64,000 bases of DNA, from the NCBI GenBank assembly GCA_038087875.1, contig CM075990.1, positions 16,184,001-16,248,000 of the forward strand, in the 5' to 3' direction. Numbering within the stretch: the first letter of the stretch is position 1; every line of letters starts with the position of its first letter. Shown one piece after another: positions 198-41,826 of this stretch. Under the pieces are notes generated by a model, which was not told the DNA's origin, did not search any database, and saw only the letters and a list, made by a program, of their open reading frames with translations. The translations under genes and the position numbers were made by a program. This DNA comes from Malacoraja senta. Its lineage: Eukaryota.

Positions 198-306
198 CTA
201 ACTGAAGCTGAACTCCTTTCCCCAGTAGGATCTCTTTCAACCCTTGCCTTACACTCGGCAAGAGCTGGTCATCAGCCAGAGGAATCTTGGAATGAACCAA
301 GGTCAC
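198..306 (-). CDS. AIFM2: AIFM2/FSP1 copy A, coding exon 5 (gene continues off the left edge)
   Basis: 109 nt, cag|GTG...TTAG|gtaca; VTLVHSKIPLADDQLLPSVRQGLKEILLGKGVQLQL matches human [36 protein letters not shown]. Confidence 0.95.
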
Positions 307-536
307 CTGGAAATAAATTAAGAAGAAAAAAAAAAAGTTCTGGTTGTGAAAGAACAGAAAACACGAGAAGAATAGGAGCAGGAGCATGGTCTCACATGCC
401 TGTCCCACCTTTCAATATGATCATGGCTGGTCAAAGCTGGCCCCAACTCATCTTCTCCACCCGTTCCCCACAATTCCTCAATCCTTCAAAGATTGTATTT
501 GAACCTCTGACGTTGTGAGGCAGCTGCATTACCAGA

Positions 537-612
537 TGTGCCACTGCGTTGCCCATCTGTGCCACTGCGCTGCCCATCTGTGCCACTGTGCTGCCCATCT
601 GTGCCACTGCGC
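537..612. repeat. 21-bp minisatellite, about 3.5 copies
   Basis: TGTGCCACTGCGCTGCCCATC unit. Confidence 0.9.
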
Positions 613-1136
613 CCCTCCAGTCTTATGTTAACATTGACCACCATCTACTCTGAAGAAGGCTGCCAACCCAAAACTTCACCTATCCATGTTCTCCAGAGAT
701 GCTGCCTGACCCACTGAGTCACTCCAGCACTCTGTGTCCTTTTGGGTAAACAAGCATCTGCCGTTCCTCGTTTCTACATCTAAACCGTCGCCCACATCTC
801 TATTCCAGATTTCTCCCCCATAATACAATCTGTCTGAAGAGGAGTCCCAACAATGGGGACTGGACTTTGTGCCTTCCCTCACAGTGGGGACCATTGTGGG
901 GGGATGTTTTTATGTTAAATTCCTTTATAATGTTATGTTGTATTCTTATTAATGTGCTGCAATGGCAACTCGAATTTCACTACAACAATTGGTGTATGTG
1001 ACAATATATGAACCTTTGAACTGAAATATCACCCCATCTATGTTCTCCAGAGATGCTGCCAAACCCGCTGAGTTACTCCAGCACTATGTGTTTGTCCATT
1101 GTAAACACATATCTGCAGTTCCATGTGTCTACTCAC

Positions 1137-1229
1137 CTCTTTGGCAGGATAATCGGTTTTGACTTCTGCTGCCATTTCCACCCCCGCCGATCCACCTCCA
1201 ACCACAACGATTCTTGGAGCTGCCCGTAT
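1137..1229 (-). CDS. AIFM2: AIFM2/FSP1 copy A, coding exon 4 (second Rossmann GxGxxG, conserved Glu equivalent to E156)
   Basis: 93 nt, cag|ATA...GAG|gtgagt; [31 protein letters not shown]. Confidence 0.95.
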
Positions 1230-1810
1230 CTGCAGAGAGGAAGGATGGCGCAAAGCTGAAAAGAGCGCAGCGAAGATTTACGAGGATGTTGCCAGGACCC
1301 GAGGGCCTGAGCAACAGGGAAAAGTTAGGCAGTTTGGGACTTTATTCCTTGGAAGCCGAGGGGTGATGTTATAGAGATGTATAACATCATGAGAATAGAT
1401 GGGGTGAATGTAGGAGAATCAAAAACAAGAGGACATATGTTTTAATATAATTTATATACATTTCATATAAAGCTGAGGGGCAACTTTTTCATGCAGAGGA
1501 TGGTGGGTGTATGGAACGAGCTGCCAGAGGAGATAGTTAAAGCAGATACTATCACAGCATGTAAAAGGCATTTGGACAGGTACATGGATAACAAAGGTAC
1601 AGAGGGTATGGGCCAAACATGGGCAAATGAGACTAGCTCAGATGGGGCATCTTTGTCAGCATGGACAGGTTGGGCTGAAGGGCCCATGTTCTATGATACT
1701 ATAACATACACAAAGTTTCTTTAAAATATGTTACAGATTAGAGCAGCAAAATTAAAGGTAATGATTTTCACTTAAACAAATTCTCTTCCAAAACTGCCAT
1801 GTAGCATCAC

Positions 1811-1930
1811 CTTTTCTACGAGATCTTCGTACATCTGGATGGCATTCTCCATTGTGACTGGTTTACCAAATTTCCCAGGGAATGGGCCGGAGCTACCAGT
1901 TCCCAGGATGAGGTGTGAAAAATGTACGAC
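1811..1930 (-). CDS. AIFM2: AIFM2/FSP1 copy A, coding exon 3
   Basis: 120 nt, tag|GTC...AAG|gtgat; [40 protein letters not shown] (not in the ORF track, read manually). Confidence 0.95.
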
Positions 1931-2895
1931 CTACAATACAGGAGAGACAATTAGCCTCACGGCCTCCCACGTGGTTTCCATGCTGTATCTTTCAATCAAA
2001 AACACAACTCTTGCATTGCAGCAGTTTAAAAAAAAAAAATTCACATTAATTAGACACTGGTAATTCTTCTGTAATGCGAGAGTTGCGTTTTTGATCGAAA
2101 GATACAGCATGGAACCACTCCCTTCGGCCCATCGAGTCACACTGATCATCAATCCCCCATTCATAAATGTTCTATAAACACAAAATGCTGGAGTAACTCA
2201 GCAGGACAGGCAGCATCTCTGGATAGAAGGAATGGGTGACGTTTCGGGCCGAGACCCTTCTTCAGACTCAGGATGTCACCCATTCCTTCTATCCAGAGAT
2301 GCTGCCTGTTCCGCTGAGTTACTCCAGCATTTTGCGTCTATCTTTGGTGTAAAGACAGCAGCCGAGGTCAGGATAAATCCTGGGTTTCTGGCACTGTGAG
2401 GCAGCAGCTCTACCCGCTGCATCACTGTGCAACCTAAGGAATCACAAGTTATAGAAAATGTGTTTAAAAAAAACCCAAATGCATCAATAAGGAAAGGGGA
2501 TCCGAGTGTTTCAGATTCATAATAACAAAGTTAATTTTCCCCACAAGATTTTCAAAAATAAATGGTCTTTTCAGTGGCAATAAGTTTACTTTTCTTACTG
2601 CAACTAAATTTACTAAAGACCGTTTCATGGCCTCCAACGTTAAAGTAGCAGCTGTGTCTTTAAGAGACCATGGTGACTGATTACTGCGAGGGGGTCACAT
2701 GAAAACAAGTATTTGTTCCCTTATACTGTTTATATCCAAGACAGCTTTTTTTCTGTCTGTCGATTTCCAAAAAAACTTTTAAGTTATTATCAAATTCCCG
2801 ACCGAAATTGTGCTCTGCAAGGTAATGTTTCCTAATTGATCATTAACAAAACTATCTCAAATACATTTTACCCCAAATGAACTTAGCGCACCTAC

Positions 2896-3011
2896 CTCTC
2901 CACTCTCCAAAACGACTGCTTGTTCTTCCAACTCAATATCAATGACACGGCCTTGCTTGAAGTTCTCTCCAAATGTTTCTTTGAATGGAATGAATGTTTT
3001 CTTTGCAAATC
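2896..3011 (-). CDS. AIFM2: AIFM2/FSP1 copy A, coding exon 2
   Basis: 116 nt, cag|GA...GAG|gtagg; (G)[38 protein letters not shown]. Confidence 0.95.
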
Positions 3012-3593
3012 CTGACAAAAGTAAAAACGTAACTAAAGGGAATATTTTGAAAAAGTGGACGTTTTCACGTTTCCTATGTAGGGAACATTTGCAGCATATT
3101 ACATCTTGCAGGGTCATTCATGGATTAGTATGGTCACATGCACAGAGACACAATCAAGAACTTTGTTTAGTTGCAAAAGTACTTCGCTCAATGGACAGTA
3201 AATCGTTGCAATTTTCCACATCAGACTGCTCTGGGTGCTCCCTCTGTGGTTAAACTCACAGCTGTGTTCAAGAGTTTTTGAATAGTAACAGGATGAAGTG
3301 TCATGGAAAATGGTTTTATCTCTTATCTAATATTGCAAGCTGTCAATTCTGTTCGTCTGCCAAGGTGGAAGATTGATTAAACACAACGGGCGGCACGGTG
3401 ACACAGCGGTCGAGTTGCTGCCTCACAGCGCCAGAGAACTGTGTCCCAAGTTCGATCCTAACTACGGATGCTTGTCTGTACGGAGTTTGTAAGCTCTCCC
3501 TGTGATCTGCGTGGGGTTTCTCCGTGATCTTCGGTTTCCTCCCACACTCCAAAGATGTACAGGTGTGTAGGTTAATTGGCTTGGTATAAATGT

Positions 3594-3634
<41 letters not shown>

Positions 3635-3877
3635 CGTGGTAGAGTTCGTGGATATATCGTATGCTCGTTATGCCAGCTGTAGGTACTCGGGGCATCAGTT
3701 AAGTCGGGACGTCGGGCCTCCTATGGACTTGTTACAAACATTCTGCGAGTTTGAAAACTCGGGAGAATTCGTGAATAACTCAGGAGAATTCGTGAATAAC
3801 TCGGGAAAGTGGGACAGGCCCTTAAAGGGGAAAAGCCCGCAGAGATCAGGCATCAGACTATCTTGCCGTTAACACAC

Positions 3878-4052
3878 CACTTTCCACCGAGGCGCGGAGG
3901 GCTCCTGGATTGTGATGGAAGGCATCCTTCACATCAATCAACGTGAATGGAATCTTGTACGACTTCAGCTGGTTCCCTGCTGCAATCCCTCCAAATCCAC
4001 CACCGACCACCACAACATGGACCCCCTCGTCCACCGACACCGTGCCTCCCAT
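3878..4052 (-). CDS. AIFM2: AIFM2/FSP1 copy A, first coding exon
   Basis: ATG at 4052, acceptor 7 nt upstream (exon starts 4059), donor G|gtgtgt; MGGTVS (G2/S6 myristoylation motif), GGGFGG FAD motif, FHHN..ALRASVE. Confidence 0.95.
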
Positions 4053-5091
4053 GTCGTGTCTGGGGAAAAGAAAACATAGGGGAGGGGATGGGGGAGAAAG
4101 GATATTTTAACAAATGTGTTCAGAAGTAGCGATATTAGTTAGACAAACTGGGTCAGGCAGCATCAGGGGAGGGAATGGACAGGCAACGTTTCAGGTCAGC
4201 CATGATCACATTAAATGGCAGTGCTGGCTCGAAGGGCCGAATGGCCTACTCCTGCACCTATTGTCAGGACCCTTCTCCAGACCCGCTGAGTTCCTCTAGC
4301 ACTTTGTGCTTTACTCAAGATCCCACCATCTGCAGTTCTTTGTGTCTACATGGACTGGATTTTACAGCTTTGCATCAATAATAGAAAACAAATTCATATC
4401 AGAAGTGAGTAGGAAAGAACTGCAGATGCTGGTTTGAATCGAAGATAGACAAAAAATGCTGGAGCAACTCAGCGGGACAGGCAACATCTCTGGAGAGGAG
4501 GAATGGGTGAAGTTTCAGGGCGAGACCCTTCTTCAGACCCGAAACGTCACCCATTCCTCCTCTTCAGAGATGTTGCCTGTCCCGCTGAGTTACTCCAGCA
4601 TTTTGTGTCTACCTTCATATCAGAAGTAATAGGAGCAGAATTAGACCATTCGGCCCATCGCTTGGTTGTTAATTTCAAGCAACCAGCGAGAAAGTTAAAC
4701 TGTCTGGTAAGATTGAAAGATTGTCGAACTGAAAGGTGAACTCTGCTTCTCTCTGCGTGACCTGCTGAGTATTTCCACTGGGTTTGTCTTCTGTTTACAG
4801 CGTTGTGTTCTTCTGAATGTAGGCAGAACAGTAACCGCTAGGTGGGAGAAAGAAAACTCCGTTGACTGTCGCTGTTAGAAACAGTTCAACATACAAACCC
4901 GGTTAGCTGGAGCTGGAGCGGCGTTCTGTTGTTGCTGTTTTTAAACCAGCTGGTTAGTCCGGTTTGTAAACTGGTCCCAAACTCGCGTCCAAGTTCTTGT
5001 TGACTCGCGGAAGTAGACAAAATGTTGCTCTAATGTTAGTTTCACTTCAAACGTTACACTGGTGGAAATGTTCAAGTCAATAAAAGCTCAC

Positions 5092-5345
5092 CGTTAACTC
5101 ACAGAGAAGGGAAGGGAATCCTTCACAGAGATGTTCACCGGCCGCTTCAGGAAGGTCCCACCACGACAGCTATACAAAGCGCAGGGCCGGACCAGGAAAG
5201 CGGCTGCCTCTGTCTGCTACACTGGCCGTGGATAGACGCTGTGGTTATCCAGGCTTCAACCCGCCTCTTGTCCATTTCCGACACCGCCAAGGTCCAATTG
5301 CAAGCGGGCGCCGCGACCGCTCCCTTCCACGCCCGGTTGCATTTG
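5092..5345 (-). promoter_or_regulatory. Putative CpG-rich promoter and non-coding first exon of AIFM2 copy A
   Basis: Local GC/CpG-rich non-repeat segment about 1 kb upstream of the ATG exon; donor-like CG|GTGAG at 5092/5091; CCAAT at about 5294. Confidence 0.45.
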
Positions 5346-5520
5346 GAGAATCGAAGAATTGCAGATAAAACTCGCAAAAAGGCACAAAGTGCTGGAGTGA
5401 CTCAGCAGCTCGTCGCATCTCTGGAGAACATGGATAGGTCTGAAGAAGGATCTCGACCCGAAACGTCACCCATTCCTTCTCTGGAGATGCTGCCTGCCCC
5501 GCTGAGTTTCTGCAGCATTT

Positions 5521-5941
5521 AAGTTTATTGGCCAAGTATTCACATACAAGGAATTTGCCTTGGTGCTCCGCCCACAAGTAACAACATGACATACAGTGAC
5601 AGTTACGAATGACTCAGAAAACACTAAACATGAATAATAATAAAACATTAATGATAAAACACCATTGATCAAGCATGTGAACCAACAAAATACCAGATCA
5701 AAGGGAGGCTACAGATTTTTGGCTGTTGAGTAGAGCAACTACTCGTGGATAAAAACTGTTTTTATGTCTGGCTGTGGCAGCTTTGACAGTCCGGAGTCGC
5801 CTTCCAGAGGGAAGTGATTCAAAGAGTTTGTGGCCAGGGTGAGAGGGGTCAGAGATGATCTTGCCCGCTCGCTTCCTGGCCCTTGCAGTGTACAGTTCAT
5901 CAATGGAGGGAAGGTTGCAGCCAATAACCTTCTCTCCTTCT
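5521..5941 (-). mobile_element. 3' fragment of a Rex1-like LINE; nearly identical copy at 46823-47177
   Basis: IISDPSHPGHKLFESLPSGRRLR...KNSFYPRVVALLN; AATAAA plus (CTTA)n tail. Confidence 0.8.
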
Positions 5942-7603
5942 CTGCTGATCATTTTGTGCCTATCTTCGATTTAAATCAGCATCTGCAGTTCGTTCCTTCA
6001 TATGGATAGGCAACTTGTAGGGAAGAACTGCAGATGCTGGTTTAATTACACTGCAGATAGACACAAAGTGCTGGAGTGACTCAGCGGGAAAGGCAGCATC
6101 TCTGGAGAGAAGTAATGGGTGACATTTCCGGTCGGGACCTTTCATTGTATGTTGTTGTCTCTTCCGGGCGGAGCACCAAGGCAAATTCCTTGTATGTGAA
6201 TACTTGGCCAATAAACGTATTTATTAATTCATTCATCAGACACAAAGTGCTGGAGTGACTCAGCAGGTCAGGCAGCATCTCTGGAGAACATGGATAGGTG
6301 TTGTGTAGGAAGGAACTGCAGATGCCGGAAAACCGAAGATAGACAGAAAAAGCTGGAGCAGCATCTTTGCAGAAAAGGAGTAGGTGACGTTTCCGGTCGA
6401 GACCCTTCGAACTGAAAGTCAGGGGAGAGGAAACCGAGAGATATGAAAAGGTACATAGAACAAATTAATGAAAGATATGCAAAAAAAAACCTGATCAAAG
6501 CCAGCAAGATGATCAAGGAAAGGTAGAGCCCACAATGGTCCATGTCTGTTGTGGGCTGGGTGACAATGAGTTTATCCAAACTGAAACTCAGCAGACGACA
6601 ATGAAACTAGTACCACGACTAGGATGGGGGAGGGACTTTGGAGATAGCATAGAAGAGGGTTACCAAATTACTGCCTGTGTTAGAGGGTATTAGCCATAAA
6701 GATAGGTTGAACCAACTTGGATTGTTTGTCTAGAACATCAGAGTTTGAGGGAAGACCAGCTGGAAGCTTGTCGAGAGACATAAGTTGAATGGAGGCTTTT
6801 TCCCAGGGTAGGAATGTTAAAGACTAGAGGGTAAAGGTTTAAGGTGAGAGGGGGAAATTATAAGGCAGAATTGTGAAGCAAGTGGTGGGTGCCTGGAATG
6901 TGCTACCTGAGAAGGTGATAGAAACAGACACACCAGTAATATGTAATAGTAATTTAGACTTCTGCAAGGAATTATATCTCTCGCTTGTAAGTAGGCAGAC
7001 ATGTAGGAGTTTATTGCCCGGGCATGTTGGCACCTACTGTCAATGCCGTTGCCCGGCCCTGAGGTTGTAGATGGGGCTATGGATGAGGTGCAATTCCAGT
7101 GAGGACGCCCTTATTGAAGTACAGAGCCTTGCGGACGCATACACTTCCTTGGGGAGATGCAGGTGGAAAAATTACGCACGCGAGTGAACATGCTTTTTGA
7201 TTGGGAACCTTCTTGCCTTCACTGGAATTTTGTCCCATCCATAGCCCTATCTACAACGCCAGGAGTAGGCAAGGGGTTTATCGAGAGCAGATGCCGTCTG
7301 GCTGCATTCCCTCTCCAGAAAACCTATCAACCAGCTATCTCATTGATAAGTGAAAGGAGCAGAATTAGGCCATTCGGCCCATCAAGTCTACTCCGCCATT
7401 CAATCATGGCTGATCTATCTCTCCCTCCTAACCCCATTCTCCTGCCTTCTCCCCATAACCCCTGACACCCGTACTAATCAAGAATCTCATTTTAGCATTT
7501 CTCCATCCCTTTTTCCCCCCATCCAATTATGTAATTCCAAGTTTATCTTGCAAAGTCCAGCAGTGCCCAGATAAGGCCAGCAGTGCCCAGTTTTCCAATT
7601 CTC

Positions 7604-8036
7604 CGTGTGGAGCGGCTGGGCTTGTACACTCTGGAATTTAGAAGGGTGAGAGGGGATCTTATTGAAACATATAAGATTATTAAGGGTTTGGACACGCTAG
7701 AGGCAGGAAACATGTTCCCAATGTTGGGGGAGTCCAGAACCATGGGGCACAGTTTAAGAATAAGGAGTAAGCCATTTAGAACGGGGATGACGAAACATTT
7801 TTTCACACAGAGAGTGTGAGTCTGCGTAATTCTCTGCCTCAGAGGGCGGTGAAGGCAGGTTCTCTGGATACTTTCAAGAGAGAGTTAGATAGGGCTCTTA
7901 AAGATAGTGGAGTCAGGAGATATGGGGAGAAGGCAGGAACGGGGTACTGATTGTGGATGATCAGCCATGATCACATTGAATGTCGGTGCTGGCTCGAAGG
8001 GCTGAATGGCCTACTCCTGCACCTATTGTCTATTGT
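7604..8036 (+). mobile_element. Young CR1 subfamily 3' fragment with (CTATTGT)n tail; related copies at 19643-19897(+), 14670-14875(-), 28195-28470(-)
   Basis: ERLGLYTLEFRRVRGDLIETYKI...TMGHSLRI; copies are nearly identical. Confidence 0.85.
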
Positions 8037-8331
8037 CTGTGGACAGACTCTTGTGCCACAACCAACCCCACTCCGTCTCCCCAAATTGAATAACAATTAA
8101 GAATGCATAAAATCAAATAATCCGACAAGGTCAAATATTTTTAAATAAGCAGGGATTTATGTCTGCATGTTCTGGTCTGAGTATTCCTGACCTTTATGAA
8201 ACAACACACACTTTATACATAGAAATGAGCAAGATTCCTAAAAAAAGTTGTATAAACATTCGGCACTGGGTCATTGAATCAGACACTCCGGAAGGGGAGC
8301 ATATATTTATATCTGTAGGAATTAAATTTCA

Positions 8332-8486
8332 TCAGGACGGCATCTTCTGGCCCATTTTTTTCCAGCTCGTTTTAACCAGTAGGTCCTTGCTTTTGACGTA
8401 TGTCACGATTAATTTCCCAACGTTGCAGCCACACATCTGACCGACGCCGTCATTCCGACCCATTGTCACCATCATGTACGGAGCCC
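8332..8486 (-). CDS. AIFM2: AIFM2/FSP1 copy B, last coding exon (8)
   Basis: tag|GG; APYMMVTMGRNDGVGQMCGCNVGKLIVTYVKSKDLLVKTSWKKMGQKMPS then TGA TGA; matches human MGRNDGVGQ...KSRDLFVSTSWK. Confidence 0.95.
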
Positions 8487-10226: not shown

Positions 10227-10427
10227 CTGGTTTGTACAGTTCCATGGGCTCATGTTTAATGTTATGGATGATATTTTTCACGCATGAGATGGCTTGGAAT
10301 TCAGCAGTATAAGCCGATTTATGTTCGTTCACATGTGCACAGTCGCCTATGGCAAAAACAATCCTCATTCCCTTCACGTTCAGATGTTCATCCACTAGTA
10401 TTGCATCGTGTTCAGTGAGGTTACCTT
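10227..10427 (-). CDS. AIFM2: AIFM2/FSP1 copy B, coding exon 7
   Basis: 201 nt, cag|AA...CCAG|gtag; GNLTEHDAILVDEHLNVKGMRIVFAIGDCAHVNEHKSAYTAEFQAISCVKNIIHNIKHEPMELYKP (GD motif). Confidence 0.95.
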
Positions 10428-10690: not shown

Positions 10691-10699
10691 ACAAGGGAG

Positions 10700-15742: not shown

Positions 15743-15895
15743 GGAAGGCGTTGACATATGCGGAAGAATTAATCTTTATTCCAGTACAACAGATAACCAT
15801 GTCTGCTATGATCTCGTGCCCCTTGTTTGTTAGCACTTTAATGTCTTTCAGGGCCTTATTCAGGTCTAGTTCTGACAGGTTATTGACTTTATGTC
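15743..15895 (-). CDS. AIFM2: AIFM2/FSP1 copy B, coding exon 6
   Basis: 153 nt, aag|GA...TTCC|gtaag; HKVNNLSELDLNKALKDIKVLTNKGHEIIADMVICCTGIKINSSAYVNAF. Confidence 0.95.
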
Positions 15896-17861: not shown

Positions 17862-17970
17862 CTAATAGAAGGTGGGCCCCTTTATTCACAAGAATATCTT
17901 TTACTCCTCGCCTAACACTGGGTAAAACCTCAGAGTCGCCCAGAACATAAGTGGAATGAATTAATGTTAC
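17862..17970 (-). CDS. AIFM2: AIFM2/FSP1 copy B, coding exon 5
   Basis: 109 nt, cag|GTA...TTAG|gtaaat; VTLIHSTYVLGDSEVLPSVRRGVKDILVNKGAHLLL. Confidence 0.95.
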
Positions 17971-21792: not shown

Positions 21793-24700
21793 TAATTCAA
21801 TTCAATTCAATTCAAAGCACTTTATTCGTCCCCGAGGGGCAATTTAAGAGGGCGTATTACAGTAGCTTTTTTTTTTAAAAAGGGACACAATCAACAAACA
21901 TAAGCAGCACGCATACTGCACAATCAACCAACACACGCATTTCACAGACACACTGCACAATCACACAAGACACACAGCACATCAACATTCAACACATAGT
22001 AATAGTTTTTAAAGTGCTTCCTTAGTGCTTCAATTAAAAAGTGCATATAGAAGGTTATTTCATTTCATATGTTCATGAGTCAGTGATCAGCATTAAGAAG
22101 CTGGACAGCCCTGGGGTTTAAGGTTGCCTTCCTCCTCTGTGTCCGGCAACCCGGACAGCGAAGTCTGCGTCCTGAGGGGAGCCACTCAAACTCAGGAAAC
22201 AGGATGTGAGAGGGGTCCTGAAGAATCCTGCGTGTTAACTTTACAGACTGTTGGTCGCATAGGGCAGTGAGAGTTCGGACGGGCTGCTCAATGATTTTTG
22301 AGCAGACCTTGACCACATTCAACAGGCGGTTTCTGTTTTGCAGGGTGATGGAGTGGAACCAGCTAGTGAAAGAGAAAGTTATTACATTTTCAATGTATGC
22401 GTAGTAGAATGTGGTGAGAATGTCTTTGTTAATCCCAAATGACTTCAGCTTCCTGAGTAGGTACTGTCTCTGATGGCACTTTTTAAGGATTTCCTCTGTG
22501 TTAGAGGAAAACCTTAGCAGGTTGTCGAAGGCTGTTCCCAGGTTTTTGTATACCTCCACTATCTCCACTGGCTCCTGCTGGATGATAGTGGTGGCTGCCT
22601 CAGCCATCTGTCTCTGTTGGGGGGAAAAGGTCACAATCATGTCCTTGGTTTTGCTTATATGTAGCTCAAGACAAGACTTTTCACACCATACTATAAAGGC
22701 CTGCAGGGCTGAGCTGTGATGTTGTGTATGGCTGGGAAGCAGAGACAGGAGGACTGTGTCATCAGCAAATTTTACAAAGAGGCGGTTTGGCTGGGTGGAT
22801 CTGCAGTCATCAGTGTAGAGAATGAAGAGAAGTGGGGAGAGGACACAGCCGTGTGGAGAGCCAGTGAAAGTGAAGAGGGTGTCGGACAAGGTATGGTTCA
22901 CCAACACCCTCTGTGATCTGTTGGTGAGGAAGTCTATAATCCACAGAGTGAGTTGGTGGTTGAAGGTGGAAGCGGGTGATGAGCTTCTCAGCCAAAATAT
23001 GTGGCTGCATGGTGTTGAATGCTGATGAGAAGTCTGCAAACAGAAGTCTGGCTGTGGTCTTGGGGATTTCCAGATGCTTATGGATGGTGTTTAAGATGAA
23101 TATCTTTGCGCCATCGACACCCCTGCCAGCCTGGTAAGCAAACTGCAATGGATCCATCATCGAGCCAGTTGCCTTGGTGATGTGCTCCTTGATAATCCTC
23201 TCCATGGCCTTCATGACCAGGGAGGTGAGAGAACACCTTGGTGGTGCCCTTCTTTGGGATGGGAATCACTGTTGAGTTTTTCCACATCGCGGGGACTGTG
23301 CTGCTGGTCAAAGAGCCCTGGAACAGATGCTGGAACACACCTCCCAGCTGCTCAGCACGGTGCCATAGGGTCTGCCCACAGATGTTGTCTGGCCCTGGAG
23401 CTGTGTTCTTTTTAGTCCTTTTGAGGGCTCTCACCACCTCTGATGTGTTGATGTTGAGGCCGGAGTCATCAGGTCTGAGTGTAGAGACGATTGATTCTAG
23501 CTGGGTGCTGTTGTCCTTTTCAAATCTGGTATAGAAGGAGTTGAGACCATTCGGGAGTGAAGTGAAGCTGCTTCCTGCAGAATTCACTTTAGAGACAGAG
23601 TTCACTGCTGCCATGTTCTTGAGGCCCTGCCAAGCTGCACGGAGGTTCCCTTTTCCAAAGGTCTGCTCCACTTTGTTCTTGTATTTCAGCTTGGCAATTT
23701 TTATGGCCCGCTTGACCTCCCTGTTTACCTCCTTCTTCTCAGCTACAGAACCGGTAAAAAATGTTCTCTTTTTCTTATTCAATATGTTTTTTAGATCTTT
23801 AGTCACCCAGGGTTTATTGTTAGGGAAGGTACACAAAAATGCTGGAGAAACTCAGCGGGTGCAGCAGCATCTATGGAGCGAAGGAAATAGGTAACGTTTC
23901 GGGCCGAAACCCTTCTTCAGACTGATAGAGGAGGAGAACTTCTTCAAAGTAGGCATACCTTGACGAGATTTCGCAGTGGAGTAGACAAAGTGTTAAAGAA
24001 GGAACTGCAGATGCTGGAAAATCGAAGGTACACAAAAATGCTGGAGAAACTCAGCGGGTGCAGCAGCATCTATGGAGCGAAGGAAATAGGTAACGTTTCG
24101 GGCCGAAACCCTTCTTCAGACTGATAGAGGAGGTTGTTTATTGTTAGGGAAGATTGTGACCTTCTTGGAGGGGATAATATTGTCTACACAGAAAGTGATG
24201 TATGCTGAGACTGTATCCGCTTGCTCACTGGTGTTGGTGGAGGAGGATGTGAGGGTATTCCAGTCTGTGGTTTCAAAACACCCTTGAAGCCTGTCAAAAC
24301 TGTCCGGTGTCCACTGTTTGATGTCCTTTCTCTGTTCTCTTTACCACAGGTGTATAGGCAGGAGCGAGCAGTATGCTGCTGTGGTCAGCAGAGCCTAGGG
24401 GAGGGAGGGAGACGGCTCTGTAGGCGTCTGGGACTGACCCATAGCATTTGTCCAGTGTTTTCCCTAGACGGGTGGTGCAATTGACATACTGGTAGAATCC
24501 TTTAAGTGACTTGTCAATTGAACAGTGATTGAAGTCACCCATGATGAATTTGGGGGCGTCCGGAGATATCAGTTCGAGTCTGTCGAGCATATTTCTTATA
24601 TGTTCCGTAGCAGTGGATGCATTTGCTCTGGGGTGGATATAAACCAGAATAAAAAACAGTTGTAGGAATTCCCTGGGAAGGTAGAAGGGACGCAGGGAGG

Positions 24701-25605
24701 CAGCCAAGAGTTCAATGTCAGGGTTGCACAGTTCTTCTCTGACAACAACTGTTTTGCACCAGCGTGGATTGATGTAGAGGCAGACACCACCGCCATGGTG
24801 CTTGCCAGTCAGTTCAGTATCACGGTCTAACCTTACAGGAGACCCAAAGCCATCTATGTGCATGCTGTCACTGTTGTCACTCCCAGTCAGCCATGTTTCA
24901 GTGAAAGCAAGAATGGAAGCAGTCCGGTATTCGTACATGTGAAAAACGTTAGCTTGCAGTTCATAAGTCTTGTTACGCAATGAGCGCACATTAGCAAGGA
25001 TCACTGAGGGAAGTGCACGGTGCTTACTTTCTCCTCGCCTAAGTCTTGCTTTAATTCCACCCTTCTTCTTCCTCCCCCATCTCGTTACCTTCTTCCTATT
25101 GTTGTGCAGGGTGCCTGTCCGGTCGGTTGGGAGTTTACATTGTAGCTCCTCCGGCAACTTGTCTATGGCAGGGGCTTGGTGAGAGTGAAATTGCAGCTGA
25201 AGTAAAAAGTCACTGCAGTAAGTAATCCGTTGGTTGTCCGGAAGAGTATATCCATATGATGCAGTGGGCAGATAATCCAAGACGAACAGTAGAAGCATAA
25301 GAGTCCATAGTGTCCATGTGAAGTCCATACTTTGGAGCAGTGAATGCAAAAAGCTAGCTGGCTAATTAACGTTAGCTCGTTGGTCCGGTGTGTGTGTGAG
25401 GTAGTGGCAGTGTCCGCACAACCACACCACGAAAGTACTGAACTATACGGCAGCAGTTGACCGTCAATCGATACCCGATATACTTAAAACGAAACAAAAC
25501 ACTCTCACAAACTCACGTAACGTAACGTAACGAAAAGACAAACATTCAAAGCTACTCTCTGCACCGACAGGTCGACCGCCCGAGCAGTGACCCGGAACCG
25601 GAAGC
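21793..25605 (-). mobile_element. Near full-length Rex1/Babar-like non-LTR retrotransposon (APE plus RT), frameshifted and interrupted, in an AIFM2-B intron
   Basis: APE motifs NVRSL, FTETWL, GGGVC, GDFN, DH (24294-25349); RT motifs PGPD, QFAY, DFSSAFNT, GCVLSPLLF, KFADDT (22080-23836); AATAAA plus (TTGAA)n 3' tail. Confidence 0.9.
23829..24135 (-). mobile_element. Tandem (199-nt period) hammerhead-bearing Penelope-like repeat nested in the Rex1-like LINE
   Basis: Identical cores at 23893-23920 and 24092-24119; 17-bp TSD GTTTATTGTTAGGGAAG at 23812 and 24136. Confidence 0.8.
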
Positions 25606-26511
25606 CTGAGTTTAAATGATTTTAATAAAACATACCATAAGAAATAGGTAGAAACAGCCGAGAAGCTGAAAACTATCTTACCAAACTGAACAGGAAGCAA
25701 ATAAAGACAGATGTTGGCACAGGGAACTACAGATGTTGGAATCTTGCAGTTGTTGGAGTAACTCAGCAAGTCAGGCAGCACCTCTGGAGGACATGGATAG
25801 GTGATGCTTCGGGCCGGGACTCAGACCGAACAAGGGTTCTGATCCGAAACATCACCTATCCATGTCTTCCAGAGATGCTGCATGGTCTGCTGAATTAGTT
25901 TAGTTTAGTTAGATAGTTTACTCCCTCACTTTGTGTTATATGGAAGAAAAGAAATTGCTTACCTGAAACCTAGCTCTTGGGAGTAATGGTGAAAGTGTTT
26001 GTATTCTGCATAATTTCCTAAGGAAGTTTGGACGATTGTATATGTGTAGACTATCTCACAAGTTAGCCGAGTATTCAGAATGGGTTCAGATCCACAAAAC
26101 TCTAAATTGCAGATGCTGGTTTACAAAAAAGGGCACAAAGTGCTGGAGTACCACAGCGGGTGAGGCAGCATCTCTCTGGAGAACATGGATAGGCGATGTT
26201 TCGGGTTGGGACTATTTCATACAGAAATAAAGGTGGAAGCTTTCATCTCTGGGTCACCCATGGCAGATCTGCTGTTGGTGAAGCATGAATCAAGGGTTCC
26301 ATCTGTACGGCACCGAGGGCTGAGATAAATACAGAAAATGCTGGGAAAACCTGACAGACCGGGCTGCCTCTGTGGAGAACGGCGACCTTCCATTCAAACT
26401 CAATGGAAGCTTCACTTGGGGGTGCTTGGCTCCACACTAAAACTGGCGATGAAAACTAGAGGAATGAATGGACCTGAAATAACAACGTCACTGTGCTAAT
26501 GAAATGTTACA

Positions 26512-27252
26512 AGGGCCTGTCCCACTTTCATGAGTTATTCATGAATTCTCCCGAGTTTTCCCCTTGATTCAAACTCGCAGAATGTTCGTAACAAGTCCGT
26601 AGGAGGTCGTAGGAGTTCGTAGATATATCGTAGCGGCTCGTTATGCTAGCCGTAGGTACTCGTGGCATCAGGTAATGGGGATGTCCCACTGTACGAGGTA
26701 ATTCAAGAGCTCTCCCGAGTTTAAAAAAAAATCAAACTCGTGGAAGCACGTAGCATGTACGAGGCGGGTACGTCGGAGCTCAGGACGTCTCTTAGCGGCT
26801 CGTAACGCTAACGGCAGGTACTCGGGCAACGCGGTAAGCTCGGGAAGACTCGTGGAGATTTTTCAACATGTTTAAAAATGTCCACGAGAGCCCCGAGTAC
26901 CTACGAGCGGCTGTTACCGTAATTCTCCGAGTTCGAATCAGGGCAAACTCGGAAGAACTCTTGAATGAACTCGTACAGTGGGACAGGGCCATTAGTCGGG
27001 ATGTTTTTTCCAGCCCGATATAACATGTCCACGAGTAAAAAAATGGTCGGGATGAAAGAAATTGCAACTTTTTACTCGTAAGGAGGGCATCGACATAGTC
27101 GTGGGAATTCGTAGACATACTCGCAGGAGTTCGTGAACATAGTCATGGAAGGTCGTAGGAGTTTGTAGATTACCACAATCTTGATTTTTTTTTTTAGGTC
27201 CTTTAAACTCAGCAGAGGTTTTGAATTAAGTCGTGAAAGTGGGATAGGCCCT
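26512..27252. mobile_element. MITE of the same TIR family with a related MITE nested at about 26676-26991
   Basis: Outer AGGGCCTGTCCCACTTTCA...TGAAAGTGGGATAGGCCCT; inner TGTCCCACTGTACGAG...CTCGTACAGTGGGACA. Confidence 0.75.
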
Positions 27253-27509
27253 AAAGGAAGCCCTTCTAAGATAAGACATACAAATATGTCAGCCTTCATA
27301 CATGAGTGAGCATTCACAACTACTAGGTAGCAGGCGATTAATAAACCATAAGACCATAACACAGAGGAGCAGGCCCTTTGAGTCTACTCCACCATTTGAT
27401 AATGGCTGATCTATTTTTCCCTCTCAACCCCATTCTCCAGCCTTCTCCCCATAACCTTCGATGCCTAAACCAGAAGGCTCTGCTGAAACTGTACACAATG
27501 CCAGATTAC

Positions 27510-27602
27510 CTCTTTGTTGGGGTAGTCGGTTTTGATCTCTGCTGCCAACTCCACGCCAGCAAGCCCACCTCCAACCACAACAATGGTTTCAGCTTTCTGA
27601 AT
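27510..27602 (-). CDS. AIFM2: AIFM2/FSP1 copy B, coding exon 4
   Basis: 93 nt, tag|ATT...GAG|gtaat; [31 protein letters not shown]. Confidence 0.95.
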
Positions 27603-28727
27603 CTAGAGGGAACAAGGAAAAGAAAGCCTTGCTTTTATATGGCACCTGTCACATCTCAGTTGTCCCAAAGTGCTCTGTGGTCAAATAAGTGCAGAATCTA
27701 TCTTGATGAAAAAAATGCAAAAAATGCACATCGCCAATTCCCAGAAATATGAATGTGATAAAGGATACATCATAAAGAACAGCACCAATTTTCCTATTAA
27801 AAAAAAAAATTGCAACTGCTTAATTATCGCAACATAATAGATTTATCCGTGGACAATGTTTTAAAAAGAAAAGCTCCATCAAAACCTATGCTTTTGTGGA
27901 CAGTGAGGGTGTTTGTTAAAGTATGCAGTGGGATCTACGTCAGGTGGTGGTGGACAAAGATCTTATAGCAAGCTCGCTATAAGATCTTTGGTGGTGGAGC
28001 CAGATACAAATAGTGGCAATTAAAGAGGATTTTGGAATGACAAAGAGTATTGCTTTAAGGCCAGAGGCCGGGGGAAAGTTTAAAGATGTGTTGGACAAGT
28101 GATTTTACATAGACTGGTGCGTACCTGGAATGCGTTGCCAGGAGTGGTGGTGGAAGCAGTGGCATTTAAGAGACTTTTAGATAGGCACATGATCAGAGAA
28201 ACATAGAAAATAGGTGCAGGAGTAGGCCATTCGGCCCTTCGAACCAGCACCGCCATTCAATATGATCATGGCTGATCATCCAAAATCAATACCCTGTTCC
28301 GGCTCTTTCCCCATATCCCTTGATTCCCTTAGCCCTAAGAGCTAAATCTTACTCTCTCTTGAAAACATCCAGTGAATTGGCCTCCACTGCCTTTTGTGGC
28401 AGAGAATTAGACGGATTCACAACTCTCTGGGTGAAAAAGGTTTACCCCATCACAGTCCTAAATGGGCGACCCCTGGGAATAAAGGGATATGAATCAGATG
28501 CAGGCAGAAGAGATCAGTATAACGTGGCACCCTGTACTGTGTGGACATTGTGGGCTGAAGCGACTGTTCCTGTTCTAAATGTTCTAAAACTTGGCCATGT
28601 CAATTCCTTTTGACTTTAGCAAGATGGCAAGTATTTGACTCAAATGTAACCAAATTAATTCTGTCTAATTCTTAGAGATTCCAGCAATGAAAACAACCAA
28701 ATTGCATGAAAAAAGTTAATCGTTTTA

Positions 28728-28965
28728 AGGGCCTGTCCCACTTTCACGACCTAATTTGCGACCTCTGCCGAGTTTGCCCTTGACTCATACTCGCAGCATG
28801 GTCGTCATGAGGTCGTAGGAGGTCGTAGGTAGGTCGTAGCAGGCCGTGATGCTAGTCGTAGGTACTCGTGGCATCAAGTAGGTCGGGGCGTTTCTTCTAG
28901 CCTGATGAAAAATGTCCACGAGTAAAAAAGGTTGTGAATTAGGTCGTGAAAGTGGGACAGGCCCT
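28728..28965. mobile_element. PIF/Harbinger-type MITE
   Basis: TTA|AGGGCCTGTCCCACTTTCACGACCTAATT...AATTAGGTCGTGAAAGTGGGACAGGCCCT|TTA: 29-bp perfect TIR and 3-bp TTA duplication. Confidence 0.8.
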
Positions 28966-29769
28966 TTACTTTCAGGTTACCTCAAGCATAATGGGTACGT
29001 TCACACCCTAAGCCAGATGTCCATTGAAAGTTGCATCAGGCAGGCTTTTGGCATCAGTGACATCAATGATGTGGCCACCAAGCCCACCAATAATCAGACG
29101 AAAAAAGGTAGTCAACGTTGCAAATTGCCCCAGTTGCGTCCCAACGGAAGAACAATGATGTATTGGTAATAATAGAATGGATCTATCTATCCCACAGGAG
29201 ATTCAGTGGTTGGGAGTGCAGACAATGGAAACCTGGGCTGTATAACGTTTCTGTGGAATGGACAGTACTGATGAACCATACAGATATTTCCCATCCTCTC
29301 TCTCTTGTGGAGTGAAAGTAAAATAGCAATGATTATTTGATTGGTATGGGTGTCAGGGGTTATGGGGAGAAGGCAGGAGAATTGGGTTGAGAAGGAAGGG
29401 TAGATCAGCCATGATTGAATGGCAGAGTAGACTTAATGGGCCGAATGGCCTAATTCTGCTCCGAGAACACATGACGGTGAGAATAAAGTGTGTCAGCTAA
29501 ACTCGTAGGAAGAAACTGCAGATGCTGGTCTAAACCGAAGATAGACACAAAATGCCGGAGTAACTCAACGGGACAGGCAGCATCTCTGGAGAGAAGGAAT
29601 GGGTGACGTTTCGGGTCAAGACTGCTCTTCAGGATCTCGACCCGAAACGTCACCCATTCCTTCTCTCCAGAGATGCTGCCCTTCGTGCTGAGTTACTCCA
29701 GCATTTTGTGTCTATTATCAGATAAACAAACTCGTTGGTTTACTCAACCACAATCCACATTAACATTAC

Positions 29770-29889
29770 CTCCTGTACCAAATCTTCATACATCTGGATG
29801 GCAGTTTCTCTACTAATCGGTTCAATTAATTTCCCAGGGAATGGGCCTGTGCTTCCAGTTGCCAGAATAAGATGTGTATAATGTATGAC
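29770..29889 (-). CDS. AIFM2: AIFM2/FSP1 copy B, coding exon 3
   Basis: 120 nt, aag|GTC...GAG|gtaatg; [40 protein letters not shown]. Confidence 0.95.
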
Positions 29890-30009
29890 CTTCAAAAGAC
29901 AATAAAATTTGACAAGTTTATTGGGATTGAAATGTGTGATAATTAACTTAACATTCAAAGATATTTCTGACAAATTCCATTATTAAAAGATCTGAAGTAT
30001 TATTTTTAC

Positions 30010-30125
30010 CTCTCCATTCTCCATTATAACGTTCTGGCCGTCCAGATCAATATCACTGACTTTACCTTGTTTGAAGTTCTCTTTGAATGTCTGGTCATAT
30101 GATATGAATGTTTTCTTTGCAAACC
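30010..30125 (-). CDS. AIFM2: AIFM2/FSP1 copy B, coding exon 2
   Basis: 116 nt, tag|GG...GAG|gtaaa; [38 protein letters not shown]. Confidence 0.95.
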
Positions 30126-31033
30126 CTAAATAAAAATATGCACGACATAGGTGGTATGAAAGTGTTAAGAACATCATGAGATATAGGGAGGAAGATATAT
30201 CACCCATTGCAGTTGCCCCTTACAAAATACAATATATTGTCTCATACTAAAGCCGTTGAATGTAAAGGATAAGTAGTTGACCTTATATTTAAGACTTGAA
30301 TGTTTGGAGTTATTTGCTCTGGAGACTGTAACCTATAACCTATAACTGAACATTATTTTTGGATGCTACATGTAGTCATGATGCTTACAGCAAATACAAA
30401 AGCCCTTGGTGAGACCACACTTGGAGTACTGTACACAACTTTTCTCACCTTACCTGCAGAAAGATATACTTGCTGCAGCTGGAGTGCAGTGGATTTACAC
30501 AAGTGGTTCCATGGATGACAGGTGCATCATTTGAGGGGTTATTGAGTTGGTTGGGCCCCTATTCTGAAGAAGGTACCGACCAGAAACGTCACCTATCCAT
30601 GTCCTCCAGAGATTCTGCCTGACCCGTTGGGTTACTCCAGCACTTTGTGTTTTATTCAAGTTTCCAGTATCTGCAGTTCCTTGTGTTGCCCTCTTCCCTC
30701 GTTTTGTACAATATGAGGTGACCTCACTGAAACATTCTCTGGGGGGTCTGTGAGAGGAGAGTTGGAGTGGATGTCCCCTGGCTAAAGGGTCGAGAACTAG
30801 GAGTCACAGCCTCAAAATAAGAGAGTGAGGAACAATGTCTTCACCCAAAAGGTGATGAATGTTTGGAGTTATTTGCTCTGGAGACTGTGAGGGCTTAGTC
30901 AATGATTCCATTCAAGACTGAGATCAGGTTTTTGAACCTGGGACAGGGTGTGAAAATGGTGCCAAGGTAGAAGATCAGCCATGATCTTAATGAGAGGCAG
31001 AGCAGGCACAAGGAACCATATGAACTACTCCTG

Positions 31034-31772
31034 CACCTCCGCCCTGCACCTCGGCTTCGGTGGCGGCACAGCTCTGGAGCGCTGTCGCGGAGCGTAGCGG
31101 GCGATGTCTTGCCTGGATCGCCGCGCTGGATCGCCGCGCTGGAGCTCCGGTAAGCTGTGACCACCGAGGTCAACACCTCCGGGCTGCGGGACTGCGGAGA
31201 GGATCGGGCGGCGCCCACTTTAACATCGGGAGCCTTGGAGCTCCAAACCGGCGCGGCCTTGTCGGCTTCGGGAGCTGCGGCCTCCGGTGCGGAATGCGGC
31301 CGTTCCAGGTGGCCCAGCCACTAGAGGACTCTCCCGACGCCGGGGCAACATCACCCGGTGAGAACGGCCAGGAACATCGGGCCTCTGTAGAGGCAATAGC
31401 GGAGGCCTCAATAGGCCTGACTTTGGGTGAACTGGGGTTGGGGACTGGACATTGTGCCTTCCCCCACAGTGGAAACCATTGTGGGGGGATGATTTTTTGT
31501 ATGTTGTGTCTATGTTAGTCTGTGTCCAAGATGGCGGTCGGAGGGGAGAGTGGACGCTGGCGCGGTTTAGTTGCCGCTGCTCTCTCATCACATTGTGTTT
31601 CTGATTTTCTTTTTTGTGTCTTTGCATTGAATTCTGTCTTTCATTTGTGTAATTGTGATGTCTTTATAACTTATTTTATCCCGATTATTTGTTTCTTTGT
31701 TAACTCTGTAAGGTGTCCTTGAGACTTTGGTATAGGCGCCCACAAATAAAATGTATTATTATTATTATTATT
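31034..31772 (+). mobile_element. GC-rich non-autonomous retroelement with an L2-like 3' tail
   Basis: Ends TGTAAGGTGTCCTTGAG...AGGCGC...AATAAAATG(TAT)n; ACTCCTG flanks both ends. Confidence 0.55.
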
Positions 31773-33139
31773 ACTCCTGATTCTACTATGTTCTTCTGTC
31801 TCTGAGGAATTGTAAATGGAATGGATCATTATGTACAGGAAGGAACTGCAGGTGCTGGTTTACACCGAAGATAGACACAAAATGCTGGAGTAACTCAGCG
31901 GAACAGGCAGCATCTCTGGAGAGAAGGAAAGGGTGACGTTTTGGGTCGAGTCCCTCCTTCAGAGGGAGTTACCGAGATAAGGAAGTGTAAGTTAAATGAG
32001 ATGCAGATCAAGGAATATGTAGAAGAGACCATTGTTAGCAAGTCTTCAGTCAACTTCCTCATAGTTGCCCTCATCAACGAAGGAAGATCATTGTTGAAGT
32101 AGCTGAAGGAGATTCAAGAGACTGAGGAATTCCTGCAGCAATGTTCTTGGGCTAAGGTTGATGATTTTCACCATTCCAGGTCACACACAATGCTAACATG
32201 GGTATGGACTGCCATTCACTGTTGTTGGATCTGAATCCTGCAATTCACTGCTGAAAATTCAGTGGGAGGACCTCCCCCAGAAGGACTGCTGTGGTAGTGG
32301 TGAGATACCTTCTTGAAGGTAATTAAGGAAGGCTTAGAAATGGTGGTCTTGCTAGTGATGACCCAGACTCCAATACTGAGTAAATCATTCCCCAGATGTT
32401 GGTGAGGATGACTTTGCAAGATCACTTGGCCGAGAGTGACATTATCATGCTGGTACCCGGGTTGATGCTGAATGATTCATTAGTTTTATTCCTGATCTTT
32501 TCGGGGAGGCTGCCTCAATTCAACCAAGCGGCTTGTTGGGCCATTTCAGGAGGAGCACTTGAGAGGTCATTGTTGGTGGGCCTGGAGCCATACAGTAAGG
32601 ACTGTGGATTTCTTACCCTGCAGGACATGAATGAACCAGTTGTGCATTTACCACACTCCAGCAGTTTCATGCGGCTAGATATTTTTAAATTAACTCGACA
32701 TAGGAGTGGTGGGTGTATCGAACAGGCTGCCAGAGGAGGTAGTTGAGGCAGGGACTATCACAATGTTTAAGAAACAATTAACCAGGTACATGGATGGGAC
32801 AGGTTTAGAGGGATATGGACCACGCACAGGCAGGTGGGACTAGTGTCGCAGGGGCATGGAGGCCAGCATGGGCAAGTTGGGCCGAAGGGCCTGTTTTCAC
32901 ACTGTATGACTATAAATGAGATCGCAAATGATTTCAAAACCCCAAAGAATAAAAAGGAGATAGTTAACATTTTGAATTTTCTGTACTTTCTGCTGATGCA
33001 ACCTTAACCTGTTCACTGCCAAGATGTTTTTTCACGTGTATGCTGACCCGAGTATTCTCGGGGGTGGCACTGAACAGGTTAAACCACGTCAATGTAATCC
33101 ATGTATGTATTTCGGGGCCCTTATTTTCCTCCAGTTTAC

Positions 33140-33314
33140 CTTCCTGTACCGATGCTCTCAGTGCACCCATGTTGTGATGGAAGGCGTACTTTATGTCAAT
33201 GAGTGTGTATGGGATCCTGTAGTTTGACAATTGCTTTGCTGCTGCTATCCCTCCAAAGCCTCCGCCGACTATGACGACATGTTCATTTTTACCGACGGAC
33301 AATCTCCCTCCCAT
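33140..33314 (-). CDS. AIFM2: AIFM2/FSP1 copy B, first coding exon; the 8 exons sum to 1122 nt (373 aa plus stop) with no disruption
   Basis: ATG at 33314, acceptor with exon start at 33321, donor G|gtaaa; MGGRLS myristoylation motif, GGGFGG, FHHN..ALRASV. Confidence 0.95.

Positions 33315-41824: not shown

Positions 41825-41826
<2 letters not shown>

What the first reader, a model, noticed from the sequence alone, without database searches (positions are those of the whole stretch)
198..33314. Old, intact tandem duplication of the ferroptosis suppressor AIFM2/FSP1
Seen: two head-to-tail genes with identical exon sizes (175/116/120/93/109) but unrelated introns and diverged proteins (40/58 identical in the first coding exon, 20/36 in the fifth), so this is not a haplotype or assembly duplicate. 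Both keep the G2/S6 myristoylation motif, GGGFGG and the GVE Glu; copy B is a complete 373-aa ORF. Established: FSP1 is a myristoylated NAD(P)H:CoQ/vitamin K reductase and single-copy in mammals. Inference: a retained paralogue could reflect sub- or neofunctionalised lipid-peroxidation defence, plausibly relevant to oil-rich chondrichthyan livers.
Basis: partly seen in the sequence, partly recalled or inferred. Interest (0 to 1): 0.72.

Follow-up and report, generated by a model that had tools for sequence, protein, structure and literature searches.

The report
Second FSP1 gene of cartilaginous fishes
This skate carries two neighbouring copies of the anti-ferroptosis enzyme gene FSP1, a pair shared with sharks, rays and a chimaera, and the second copy keeps the catalytic core but has a fixed, reshaped substrate-side pocket, so it may handle different quinones or cofactors.

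Summary
There are two head-to-tail AIFM2/FSP1 genes on the minus strand with the stated exon sizes and identities. Copy B is a complete 373-codon gene; copy A leaves the window after coding exon 5.

The window looks like a rajid skate, and the pair is not local. B-type proteins occur in 23 chondrichthyan species including Callorhinchus, and A-type proteins in 22 of those 23. No B type appeared among the bony-vertebrate proteins seen.

The tree joins A and B (98/94), which suggests a duplication on the chondrichthyan stem. An older duplication with loss in bony vertebrates was not rejected (AU p=0.098).

A is the conservative copy. B keeps the residues shown to be essential in human FSP1, but differs at 18 of 182 otherwise conserved sites (A: 1 of 163). 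Eleven of the 18 lie in residues 292-331, beside the flavin and quinone (permutation p=0.0002).

Best reading: B is an active reductase with altered cofactor or acceptor use. Expression in this species and the liver-oil idea are untested. Databases list both genes as 'FSP1-like'; ten paper searches found no description of the pair.

The parts
33140..33314 (-). Copy B coding exon 1 (175 nt; start codon at 33314; a splice-acceptor-like site 7 nt upstream, as in copy A)
   Evidence: sequence
30010..30125 (-). Copy B coding exon 2 (116 nt)
29770..29889 (-). Copy B coding exon 3 (120 nt)
27510..27602 (-). Copy B coding exon 4 (93 nt; NAD(P)H motif with S152L, keeps E156 and E160)
17862..17970 (-). 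Copy B coding exon 5 (109 nt; keeps H174, S175, D181; changed at 176, 177, 180)
15743..15895 (-). Copy B coding exon 6 (153 nt; keeps G244, N248)
10227..10427 (-). Copy B coding exon 7 (201 nt; keeps D285, C286, K293, Y296; holds most B-specific changes, 292-319)
8332..8486 (-). Copy B coding exon 8 with stop codon (C-terminal domain; keeps K355; L326P, T327Y, Cys at 342 and 344)
4800..5600 (-). CpG-rich stretch between the genes: probable promoter and non-coding first exon of copy A, with a donor-like site at about 5091 (inferred)
   Evidence: CpG observed/expected 0.79-0.88 in 400-base windows starting 4801-5201; sequence; not tested by reads
3878..4052 (-). Copy A coding exon 1 (175 nt)
2896..3011 (-). 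Copy A coding exon 2 (116 nt)
1811..1930 (-). Copy A coding exon 3 (120 nt)
1137..1229 (-). Copy A coding exon 4 (93 nt; canonical S152, E156)
198..306 (-). Copy A coding exon 5 (109 nt); exons 6-8 lie beyond the window
22080..25361 (-). Broken LINE (endonuclease and reverse transcriptase pieces in several frames) inside copy B intron 4; accounts for part of that intron's length
   Evidence: PF03372, PF00078
34419..34618 (.). 200-N assembly gap upstream of copy B; B's promoter and non-coding first exon are probably in or beyond it (inferred)

Best explanation
A tandem duplication of the whole AIFM2/FSP1 gene happened before chimaeras and elasmobranchs split, most likely on the chondrichthyan stem.

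Copy A stayed the canonical myristoylated NAD(P)H:quinone reductase. Copy B changed fast early (stem branch 0.24 vs 0.064) and has since been conserved slightly more than A.

Shown by sequence: B keeps the fold and the FAD-binding, NAD(P)H-binding and proton-relay residues. It has remodelled the helix and strands beside the flavin ring and quinone site.

Inferred: B still passes a hydride from NAD(P)H to FAD and then to a lipid-soluble quinone at a membrane, but with different preferences. It probably uses plain FAD rather than 6-hydroxy-FAD (S152L). It may weigh NADPH against NADH differently (K/Q176T). It probably ranks acceptors such as CoQ, vitamin K and other quinones differently (M294S, H297T, G299E, L300F, H301Q, L326P, T327Y).
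For: Distribution: B in 23 chondrichthyan species, A in 22 of them.

Tree: A 99/96, B 100/100, A+B 98/94, each clade with Callorhinchus; A+B at 95 in a second taxon set.

Conserved core: G2, F21, D41, H48, N49, R54, K118, A153, E156, E160, H174, S175, D181, G244, N248, D285, C286, K293, A295, Y296, K355 and S364 are present in 24 of 24 B sequences. PMC10643123 (parts 1-3 of 9) reports D41, E156, E160, G244, D285, C286 and K355 as needed for activity or rescue. An AlphaFold model of the Amblyraja B protein (366/373 identical to the window's B; pLDDT 91.4) matches FSP1 crystal structures at TM 0.95-0.96.

Asymmetry: 18 of 182 sites conserved in A plus bony vertebrates differ in all 24 B sequences, against 1 of 163 for the reverse. 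Eleven of the 18 fall in residues 292-331 (p=0.0002; also 0.010 and 0.019 for 10- and 20-residue scans). That span overlaps the ubiquinone pocket given for chicken FSP1 (293-298 and 327-331, PMC10516921 passages).

Specific residues: M294 is Met in 101 of 101 A and bony sequences and Ser in 24 of 24 B; human M294A halves vitamin-K-dependent carboxylation (PMC9929328 passage). Human S152A largely abolishes 6-hydroxy-FAD binding (PMC11333494). S175, Q176 and R208 bind the NADPH 2'-phosphate (PMC10896247, citing another study).

Constraint and expression in relatives: mean within-clade identity is 85.6% for B and 82.9% for A. Near-full-length ORFs of both types sit on unnamed 1.3-1.6 kb Logan contigs; contigs that short imply spliced mRNA in close relatives.
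Against: There are no enzyme or cell data; every functional step is inferred.

B-specific sites were not enriched in my list of literature-named pocket residues (3/30 vs 15/152, Fisher p=1.0; with ranges 5/41 vs 13/141, p=0.56). The clustering test was chosen after seeing the list.

Position 152 is Ala in 25 of 79 bony-vertebrate sequences, and chicken FSP1 (Ala at this position) could still make 6-hydroxy-FAD in vitro (PMC10516921 passage). Human M294I/V and T327K/R variants stay functional (PMC10643123), so the pocket tolerates change.

On timing, the AU test did not reject A plus bony vertebrates as a clade (p=0.098). Site patterns favoured that grouping 5 to 3 (2 for the third grouping). 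Bony vertebrates came out paraphyletic in both trees, so the root is unreliable, and no cyclostome sequence was found.
Confidence: 0.55

Rival explanations
1. Both copies are biochemically ordinary FSP1 enzymes, kept because they divided tissues or stages. B's changes are compensated or neutral ones fixed early.
For: The essential residues are kept in 24 of 24 B sequences. There is no enrichment in named pocket residues. Logan-derived ORFs are far commoner for skate A (cluster of 52 members; 40 read, 3 named; the 12 unnamed ones listed are all Logan) than for B (cluster of 8, 2 Logan), which fits broad A and restricted B expression. A has a CpG-rich upstream region.
Against: The changes are one-sided (18 vs 1) and clustered in one 40-residue span. 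Several hit sites invariant in all 101 other jawed-vertebrate sequences (P292, M294, H301, M157). Cluster sizes depend on clustering and sampling and are not expression levels.
Confidence: 0.3
2. B is the survivor of an older duplication on the jawed-vertebrate stem and was lost in bony vertebrates. This concerns timing and is compatible with either functional reading.
For: AU p=0.098. At 5 sites B shares the invertebrate state against A plus bony vertebrates, against 3 sites uniting A and B. Gene conversion between tandem copies could pull A and B together (inference).
Against: The free trees give A+B at 98/94 and 95. It requires an extra loss. No B type was seen among the bony-vertebrate proteins listed, though only 120 of 434 hits were listed and ray-finned fishes were thinly sampled.
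Confidence: 0.22
3. B is no longer mainly a quinone reductase. It works as an NAD(P)H oxidase, reduces a non-quinone acceptor, or uses its fixed cysteines (305, 342, 344) for thiol chemistry.
For: Cys at 305, 342 and 344 is present in 24 of 24 B sequences; 305 and 342 are never Cys in A or the 79 bony sequences. Two stingray B proteins have Pro at position 3 and fail a recalled myristoylation pattern. FSP1 can act as an NAD(P)H oxidase (PMC13041786 section 9; PMC10516921 passages).
Against: The quinone-clamp Y296, K355 and the proton-relay glutamates are kept, and L360 is as in copy A and mouse. I could not measure cysteine distances because no coordinates are returned.
Confidence: 0.1
4. One reading: the extra copy was kept to protect the oil-rich chondrichthyan liver from lipid peroxidation.
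For: B is restricted to cartilaginous fishes in the searches run. Oil-rich livers are a general trait of the group (recalled, no call).
Against: The B-type ORF is rare among Logan-derived sequences compared with A, which does not suggest a dominant transcript, although tissues are unknown. A shared taxonomic range is not a link.
Confidence: 0.15

Closest known systems
Vertebrate FSP1/AIFM2 (human, chicken, reconstructed tetrapod ancestor; PDB 8WIK, 8JSC, 8YO8, 7XPI, 9IFT)
   Same: Same length, same fold (TM 0.95-0.96 to the human and ancestral structures, 0.88 to chicken), same N-terminal Gly/Ser pattern and catalytic residues. Window B matches human at 215 of 372 residues.
   Different: There are two tandem genes. 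B differs at 18 otherwise conserved sites and has a more basic C-terminal segment (net +5.0 vs +2.1 in A and +3.3 in bony vertebrates).
Chondrichthyan 'ferroptosis suppressor protein 1-like' database models (e.g. XP_032868437 and XP_032868496 Amblyraja; XP_055517643 and XP_055517645 Leucoraja; XP_007896592 and NP_001279705 Callorhinchus)
   Same: Direct orthologues of B and A.
   Different: They are automatic annotations that do not tell the two types apart; no paper describing them was found.
Type II NADH:quinone oxidoreductases (NDH-2, Ndi1), SQR and AIFM1
   Same: Pyr_redox_2 domain; TM 0.64-0.78.
   Different: Only 15-22% identity. B nests inside the jawed-vertebrate FSP1 clade (100/100).
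Multiple FSP1-like genes in amphioxus, tunicates, hemichordates and echinoderms
   Same: FSP1 duplication is common in invertebrate deuterostomes (one search lists several per species).
   Different: They all fall outside the jawed-vertebrate clade, so they are independent duplications.

Membership tests
FSP1/AIFM2 | Falls within the vertebrate FSP1 clade | tested here: met
   Both copies lie inside the 100/100 jawed-vertebrate clade
FSP1/AIFM2 | Two Rossmann domains plus the FSP1 C-terminal domain | tested here: met
   Pfam PF07992 in skate A and B orthologues; model of the Amblyraja B orthologue at TM 0.95-0.96. A was not modelled.
FSP1/AIFM2 | N-terminal myristoylation motif (M-G-x-x-x-S) | tested here: met
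   Present in both window copies. A stricter recalled pattern is met by 22 of 24 B and 22 of 22 A. The modification itself is untested.
FSP1/AIFM2 | Essential residues D41, E156, E160, G244, D285, C286, K355 (PMC10643123) | tested here: met
   24 of 24 B and 22 of 22 A; in window A only D41, E156 and E160 fall inside the window
FSP1/AIFM2 | Canonical flavin-pocket lining V50, A153, M294, F360 and the S152-D181 pair (PMC11333494) | tested here: not met
   B has M50, L152, S294 and L360 in 24 of 24; A has P50 and L or M at 360 but keeps M294. L360 is also the mouse state (PMC10643123), and the lining already varies inside the family, so this marks a variant and does not exclude membership.
FSP1/AIFM2 | NAD(P)H-dependent reduction of CoQ or vitamin K | not testable with these tools
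   Needs enzyme assays
FSP1/AIFM2 | Suppresses ferroptosis in GPX4-deficient cells | not testable with these tools
   Needs a rescue assay
Functional (non-pseudogene) duplicate | Open reading frame, canonical splice sites, constraint | tested here: met
   B is complete; dN/dS about 0.21 between copies; B is conserved across 23 species. For A only 204 of 373 codons could be checked.
Functional (non-pseudogene) duplicate | Both copies transcribed in this species | tested here: inconclusive
   No reads could be laid. Indirect only: spliced-length ORFs of both types on unnamed Logan contigs of close relatives.

The most novel reading that the evidence does not exclude
Copy B is a second jawed-vertebrate FSP1, older than the shark/bony-fish split and lost in bony vertebrates, and it has a distinct chemistry: a different lipid-soluble acceptor, or thiol-assisted catalysis through its fixed cysteines. 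It would be a redox-defence enzyme that mammals lack.
Probability: 0.1. Interest if true: 0.72.

Novelty: new variant of a known kind. Interest (0 to 1): 0.42.

Why it matters
FSP1 is a drug target whose cofactor (FAD or 6-hydroxy-FAD), NADH/NADPH use and quinone selectivity are still debated. A natural paralogue that has held one alternative pocket fixed from chimaera to skate (over 400 million years, date recalled) gives a ready-made set of compatible substitutions for testing what those residues do. It could also reveal a second function of the fold. For shark biology it supplies a concrete candidate gene for lipid-peroxidation defence. Against this, a lineage-specific tandem duplicate is an ordinary kind of event, both genes already sit in public annotations, and no functional difference is shown.

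Tried and rejected
Haplotype or assembly duplicate: rejected (dS about 1.16, no collinear intron similarity, orthologues of both in many species).

Skate-specific duplication: rejected (both clades contain sharks and Callorhinchus).

B as a decaying pseudogene: rejected (complete ORF, slightly more conserved than A).

Enrichment of B changes in a literature pocket list: tested, not found.

Genome search for A's exons 6-8: no genome is held.

Expression: no RNA holder listed, and no reads were laid, so expression is open.

Tissue data from papers: the catshark atlas supplement could not be read (PMC11979771; I saw only its search listing). In the whale shark paper's supplements, 12 of 24 files were searched with 0 hits (PMC8455134). 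The FSP1 phylogeny in the supplement of PMC13041786 could not be read and may already show both shark copies.

Cyclostome outgroup: sought through and not found; the candidate P0209 was closest to tunicate proteins.

Earlier scan findings: none by words or by sequence.

Paper searches:
- Searches returned 0 papers.
- Searches (11 listed; 4; 15; 3; 8) listed none whose title or abstract opening concerns this pair.
- Searches (25 of 2,486 listed; 15 of 540 listed) showed no occurrence of the gene term in the listed papers.
- Most subscription journals are outside the library.

No complex prediction was run, since no binding is claimed.
Full report
OBSERVATION. Both genes lie on the minus strand, B upstream of A, with about 4.3 kb from B's stop (8332) to A's start (4052). 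One search gives B as eight coding exons (175/116/120/93/109/153/201/155 nt), 373 codons, all introns GT-AG. It gives A as five exons of identical size, open for 204 codons before the window ends. The stated identities (40/58, 20/36) are exact; overall identity is 134/204, with dS about 1.16 and dN about 0.25. tblastn with full-length skate and human proteins found only these exons, so there is no third copy in the window. In blastn of the two gene regions the collinear hits are exons.

WHAT ORGANISM AND HOW WIDESPREAD. B matches Amblyraja at 366/373 and Leucoraja at 365/373; A matches them at 197/204 and 200/204. The window is therefore from a rajid-like skate. A search with B's exon 7 passed 13 of 14 candidates, all chondrichthyan, including Callorhinchus. 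A search with the Callorhinchus B protein (434 hits, best 120 listed) ranked full-length B types at 71-74%, chondrichthyan A types at 60-66% and bony vertebrates at 53-62%. Cluster look-ups gave B in 23 named species and A in 22 of them. Narcine A was not seen, which is not evidence of loss, given the listing limit.

Tandem arrangement elsewhere is indirect. A Scyliorhinus torazame gene model joins B-type exons 5-7 to an A-type protein in the same order as here (P0004). The two types have consecutive accessions in Pristis, Leucoraja, S. torazame and Chiloscyllium plagiosum, and consecutive EukProt numbers in Callorhinchus.

WHEN. The tree of 55 proteins (IQ-TREE, LG+C20, invertebrate deuterostome outgroups) gives A 99/96, B 100/100 and A+B 98/94, each clade starting with Callorhinchus. 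The B stem is 0.24 against 0.064 for A. A second set with more fish fragments again gave A+B (95). Results against this date: the AU test did not reject A plus bony vertebrates as a clade (p=0.098); informative site patterns were 5 for that grouping, 3 for A+B and 2 for the third; bony vertebrates were paraphyletic in both trees; and no cyclostome sequence was found. I put a chondrichthyan-stem origin at about 0.75-0.8.

WHAT CHANGED. I aligned 24 B sequences (23 species plus the window), 22 A sequences and 79 bony-vertebrate proteins. The bony set came, keeping proteins of 365-380 residues, dropping P0087 and adding five. It is mostly tetrapods, with one teleost, two chondrosteans and one coelacanth, and includes three unnamed Logan rows taken as tetrapod by their sequence. 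Of 182 sites conserved in A and bony vertebrates, 18 differ in every B; the reverse count for A is 1 of 163. In human numbering the 18 are 37, 44, 157, 180, 190, 197, 261, 292, 294, 297, 300, 301, 316, 318, 319, 326, 330 and 331. Eleven fall in 292-331, against 41 of 182 conserved sites at or beyond 292; the permutation p is 0.0002 for a 40-residue scan (chosen after seeing the list). Further B-wide states are M50, L152, T176, Y177, E299, C305, C342 and C344 (24 of 24) and Y327 (23 of 24). They were not enriched in my pre-listed pocket residues (p=1.0 and 0.56), partly because that list contains the catalytic residues B keeps. After the early change B was conserved (mean identity 85.6% vs 82.9% for A).

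HOW IT MOST LIKELY WORKS. Established from the papers read: FSP1 binds FAD through D41 and D285 and NAD(P)H through the E156 motif and G244, and relays protons through E156, E160 and K355 (PMC10643123, parts 1-3 of 9 and passages). The flavin ring sits on V50, A153, M294 and F360, and S152-D181 favours 6-hydroxy-FAD (PMC11333494, parts 1-2 of 3). Y296 and F360 clamp the quinone, and S175, Q176 and R208 contact the NADPH phosphate (PMC10896247, parts 1-2 of 5; PMC13041786, passages and section 9). The chicken quinone pocket includes residues 293-298 and 327-331 (PMC10516921, passages). M294A halves vitamin-K-dependent carboxylation (PMC9929328, passages).

Shown here: B keeps all the essential residues and, judged from its Amblyraja orthologue, the fold (pLDDT 91.4, TM 0.95-0.96). 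It has replaced several second-shell residues and has a more basic C-terminal segment.

Inferred: B is an active membrane-associated NAD(P)H:quinone reductase with a different flavin state and acceptor preference (0.55). The main rival, ordinary enzymes split by expression, gets 0.3. Human variants at 294 and 327 remain functional, and chicken FSP1 with Ala at 152 still hydroxylates FAD in vitro. A non-quinone role gets 0.1.

EXPRESSION. This was not tested in this species. Indirectly, unnamed Logan contigs of 1.3-1.6 kb encode near-full-length A-type and B-type proteins close to the window's copies (192-199 of about 200 and 360 of 369 identical). B's coding exons span 25 kb here, so such contigs must come from spliced mRNA (inference). 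A-type sequences are far more numerous (cluster of 52 vs 8), hinting at broad A and narrower or lower B expression; tissues are unknown. Nothing obtained bears on liver.

SURROUNDINGS. A 200-N gap at 34419-34618 follows B's 5' end. Right after it are late exons of a cadherin gene on the plus strand, then two LRR-Ig-FN3 genes. The names CDHR1-like and LRIT2/LRIT1-like are from recall. The cadherin's earlier exons are absent from the window, so the gap hides much sequence or is a scaffold join, and B's promoter and its adjacency to that gene are unverified.

NOVELTY AND VERDICT. Both genes are already in public annotations as undifferentiated 'FSP1-like' models. Ten paper searches found no description of the pair. 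The library lacks most subscription papers, and two unreadable supplements could show it. The scan's earlier findings held nothing. This is a real, clade-wide, ancient paralogue with a fixed divergent pocket: a new variant of a known enzyme, testable with standard assays, but with no functional difference shown.

Noticed in passing
window 37144-38760: Tc1/mariner element in a cadherin-gene intron with an uninterrupted 336-codon transposase frame (37365-38375, minus strand; PF01498, PF13358, PF25787) and 216-bp terminal inverted repeats 96.8% identical; looks young.
   Followed up: partly
window 34419-34618 and 34690-44820: 200-N gap followed directly by late exons of a cadherin gene (CDHR1-like, name recalled); its 5' exons are missing from the window, so the gap is much larger than 200 bases or is a join.
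   Followed up: partly
window 43764-43961 and 44258-44820: Two separate stretches on the plus strand near the cadherin gene's end each look like a transmembrane-plus-tail exon, possibly alternative last exons; read by eye.
   Followed up: no
window 52591-54673 and 61784-62911: Two LRR-Ig-FN3 genes on the minus strand (LRIT2-like and LRIT1-like, names recalled) with long open exons; of possible interest because some skates have rod-only retinas (listing).
   Followed up: no
P0006, P0131 (Hypanus and Hemitrygon B proteins): Pro at position 3, which a recalled myristoylation pattern disallows; B may have lost its lipid anchor in these stingrays.
   Followed up: no
window copy A exon 1, and all 22 A orthologues: A has Pro at human position 50, a flavin-stacking Val in 78 of 79 bony-vertebrate sequences, while B has Met; so the 'canonical' copy also has one fixed pocket change.
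   Followed up: partly
window 22080-25361: Broken LINE in copy B intron 4, with short-repeat insertions splitting its frames.
   Followed up: no
P0007 / Narcine bancroftii: Only B-type proteins were seen for this electric ray; an A copy may lie below the listing cut-off or may be lost.
   Followed up: no
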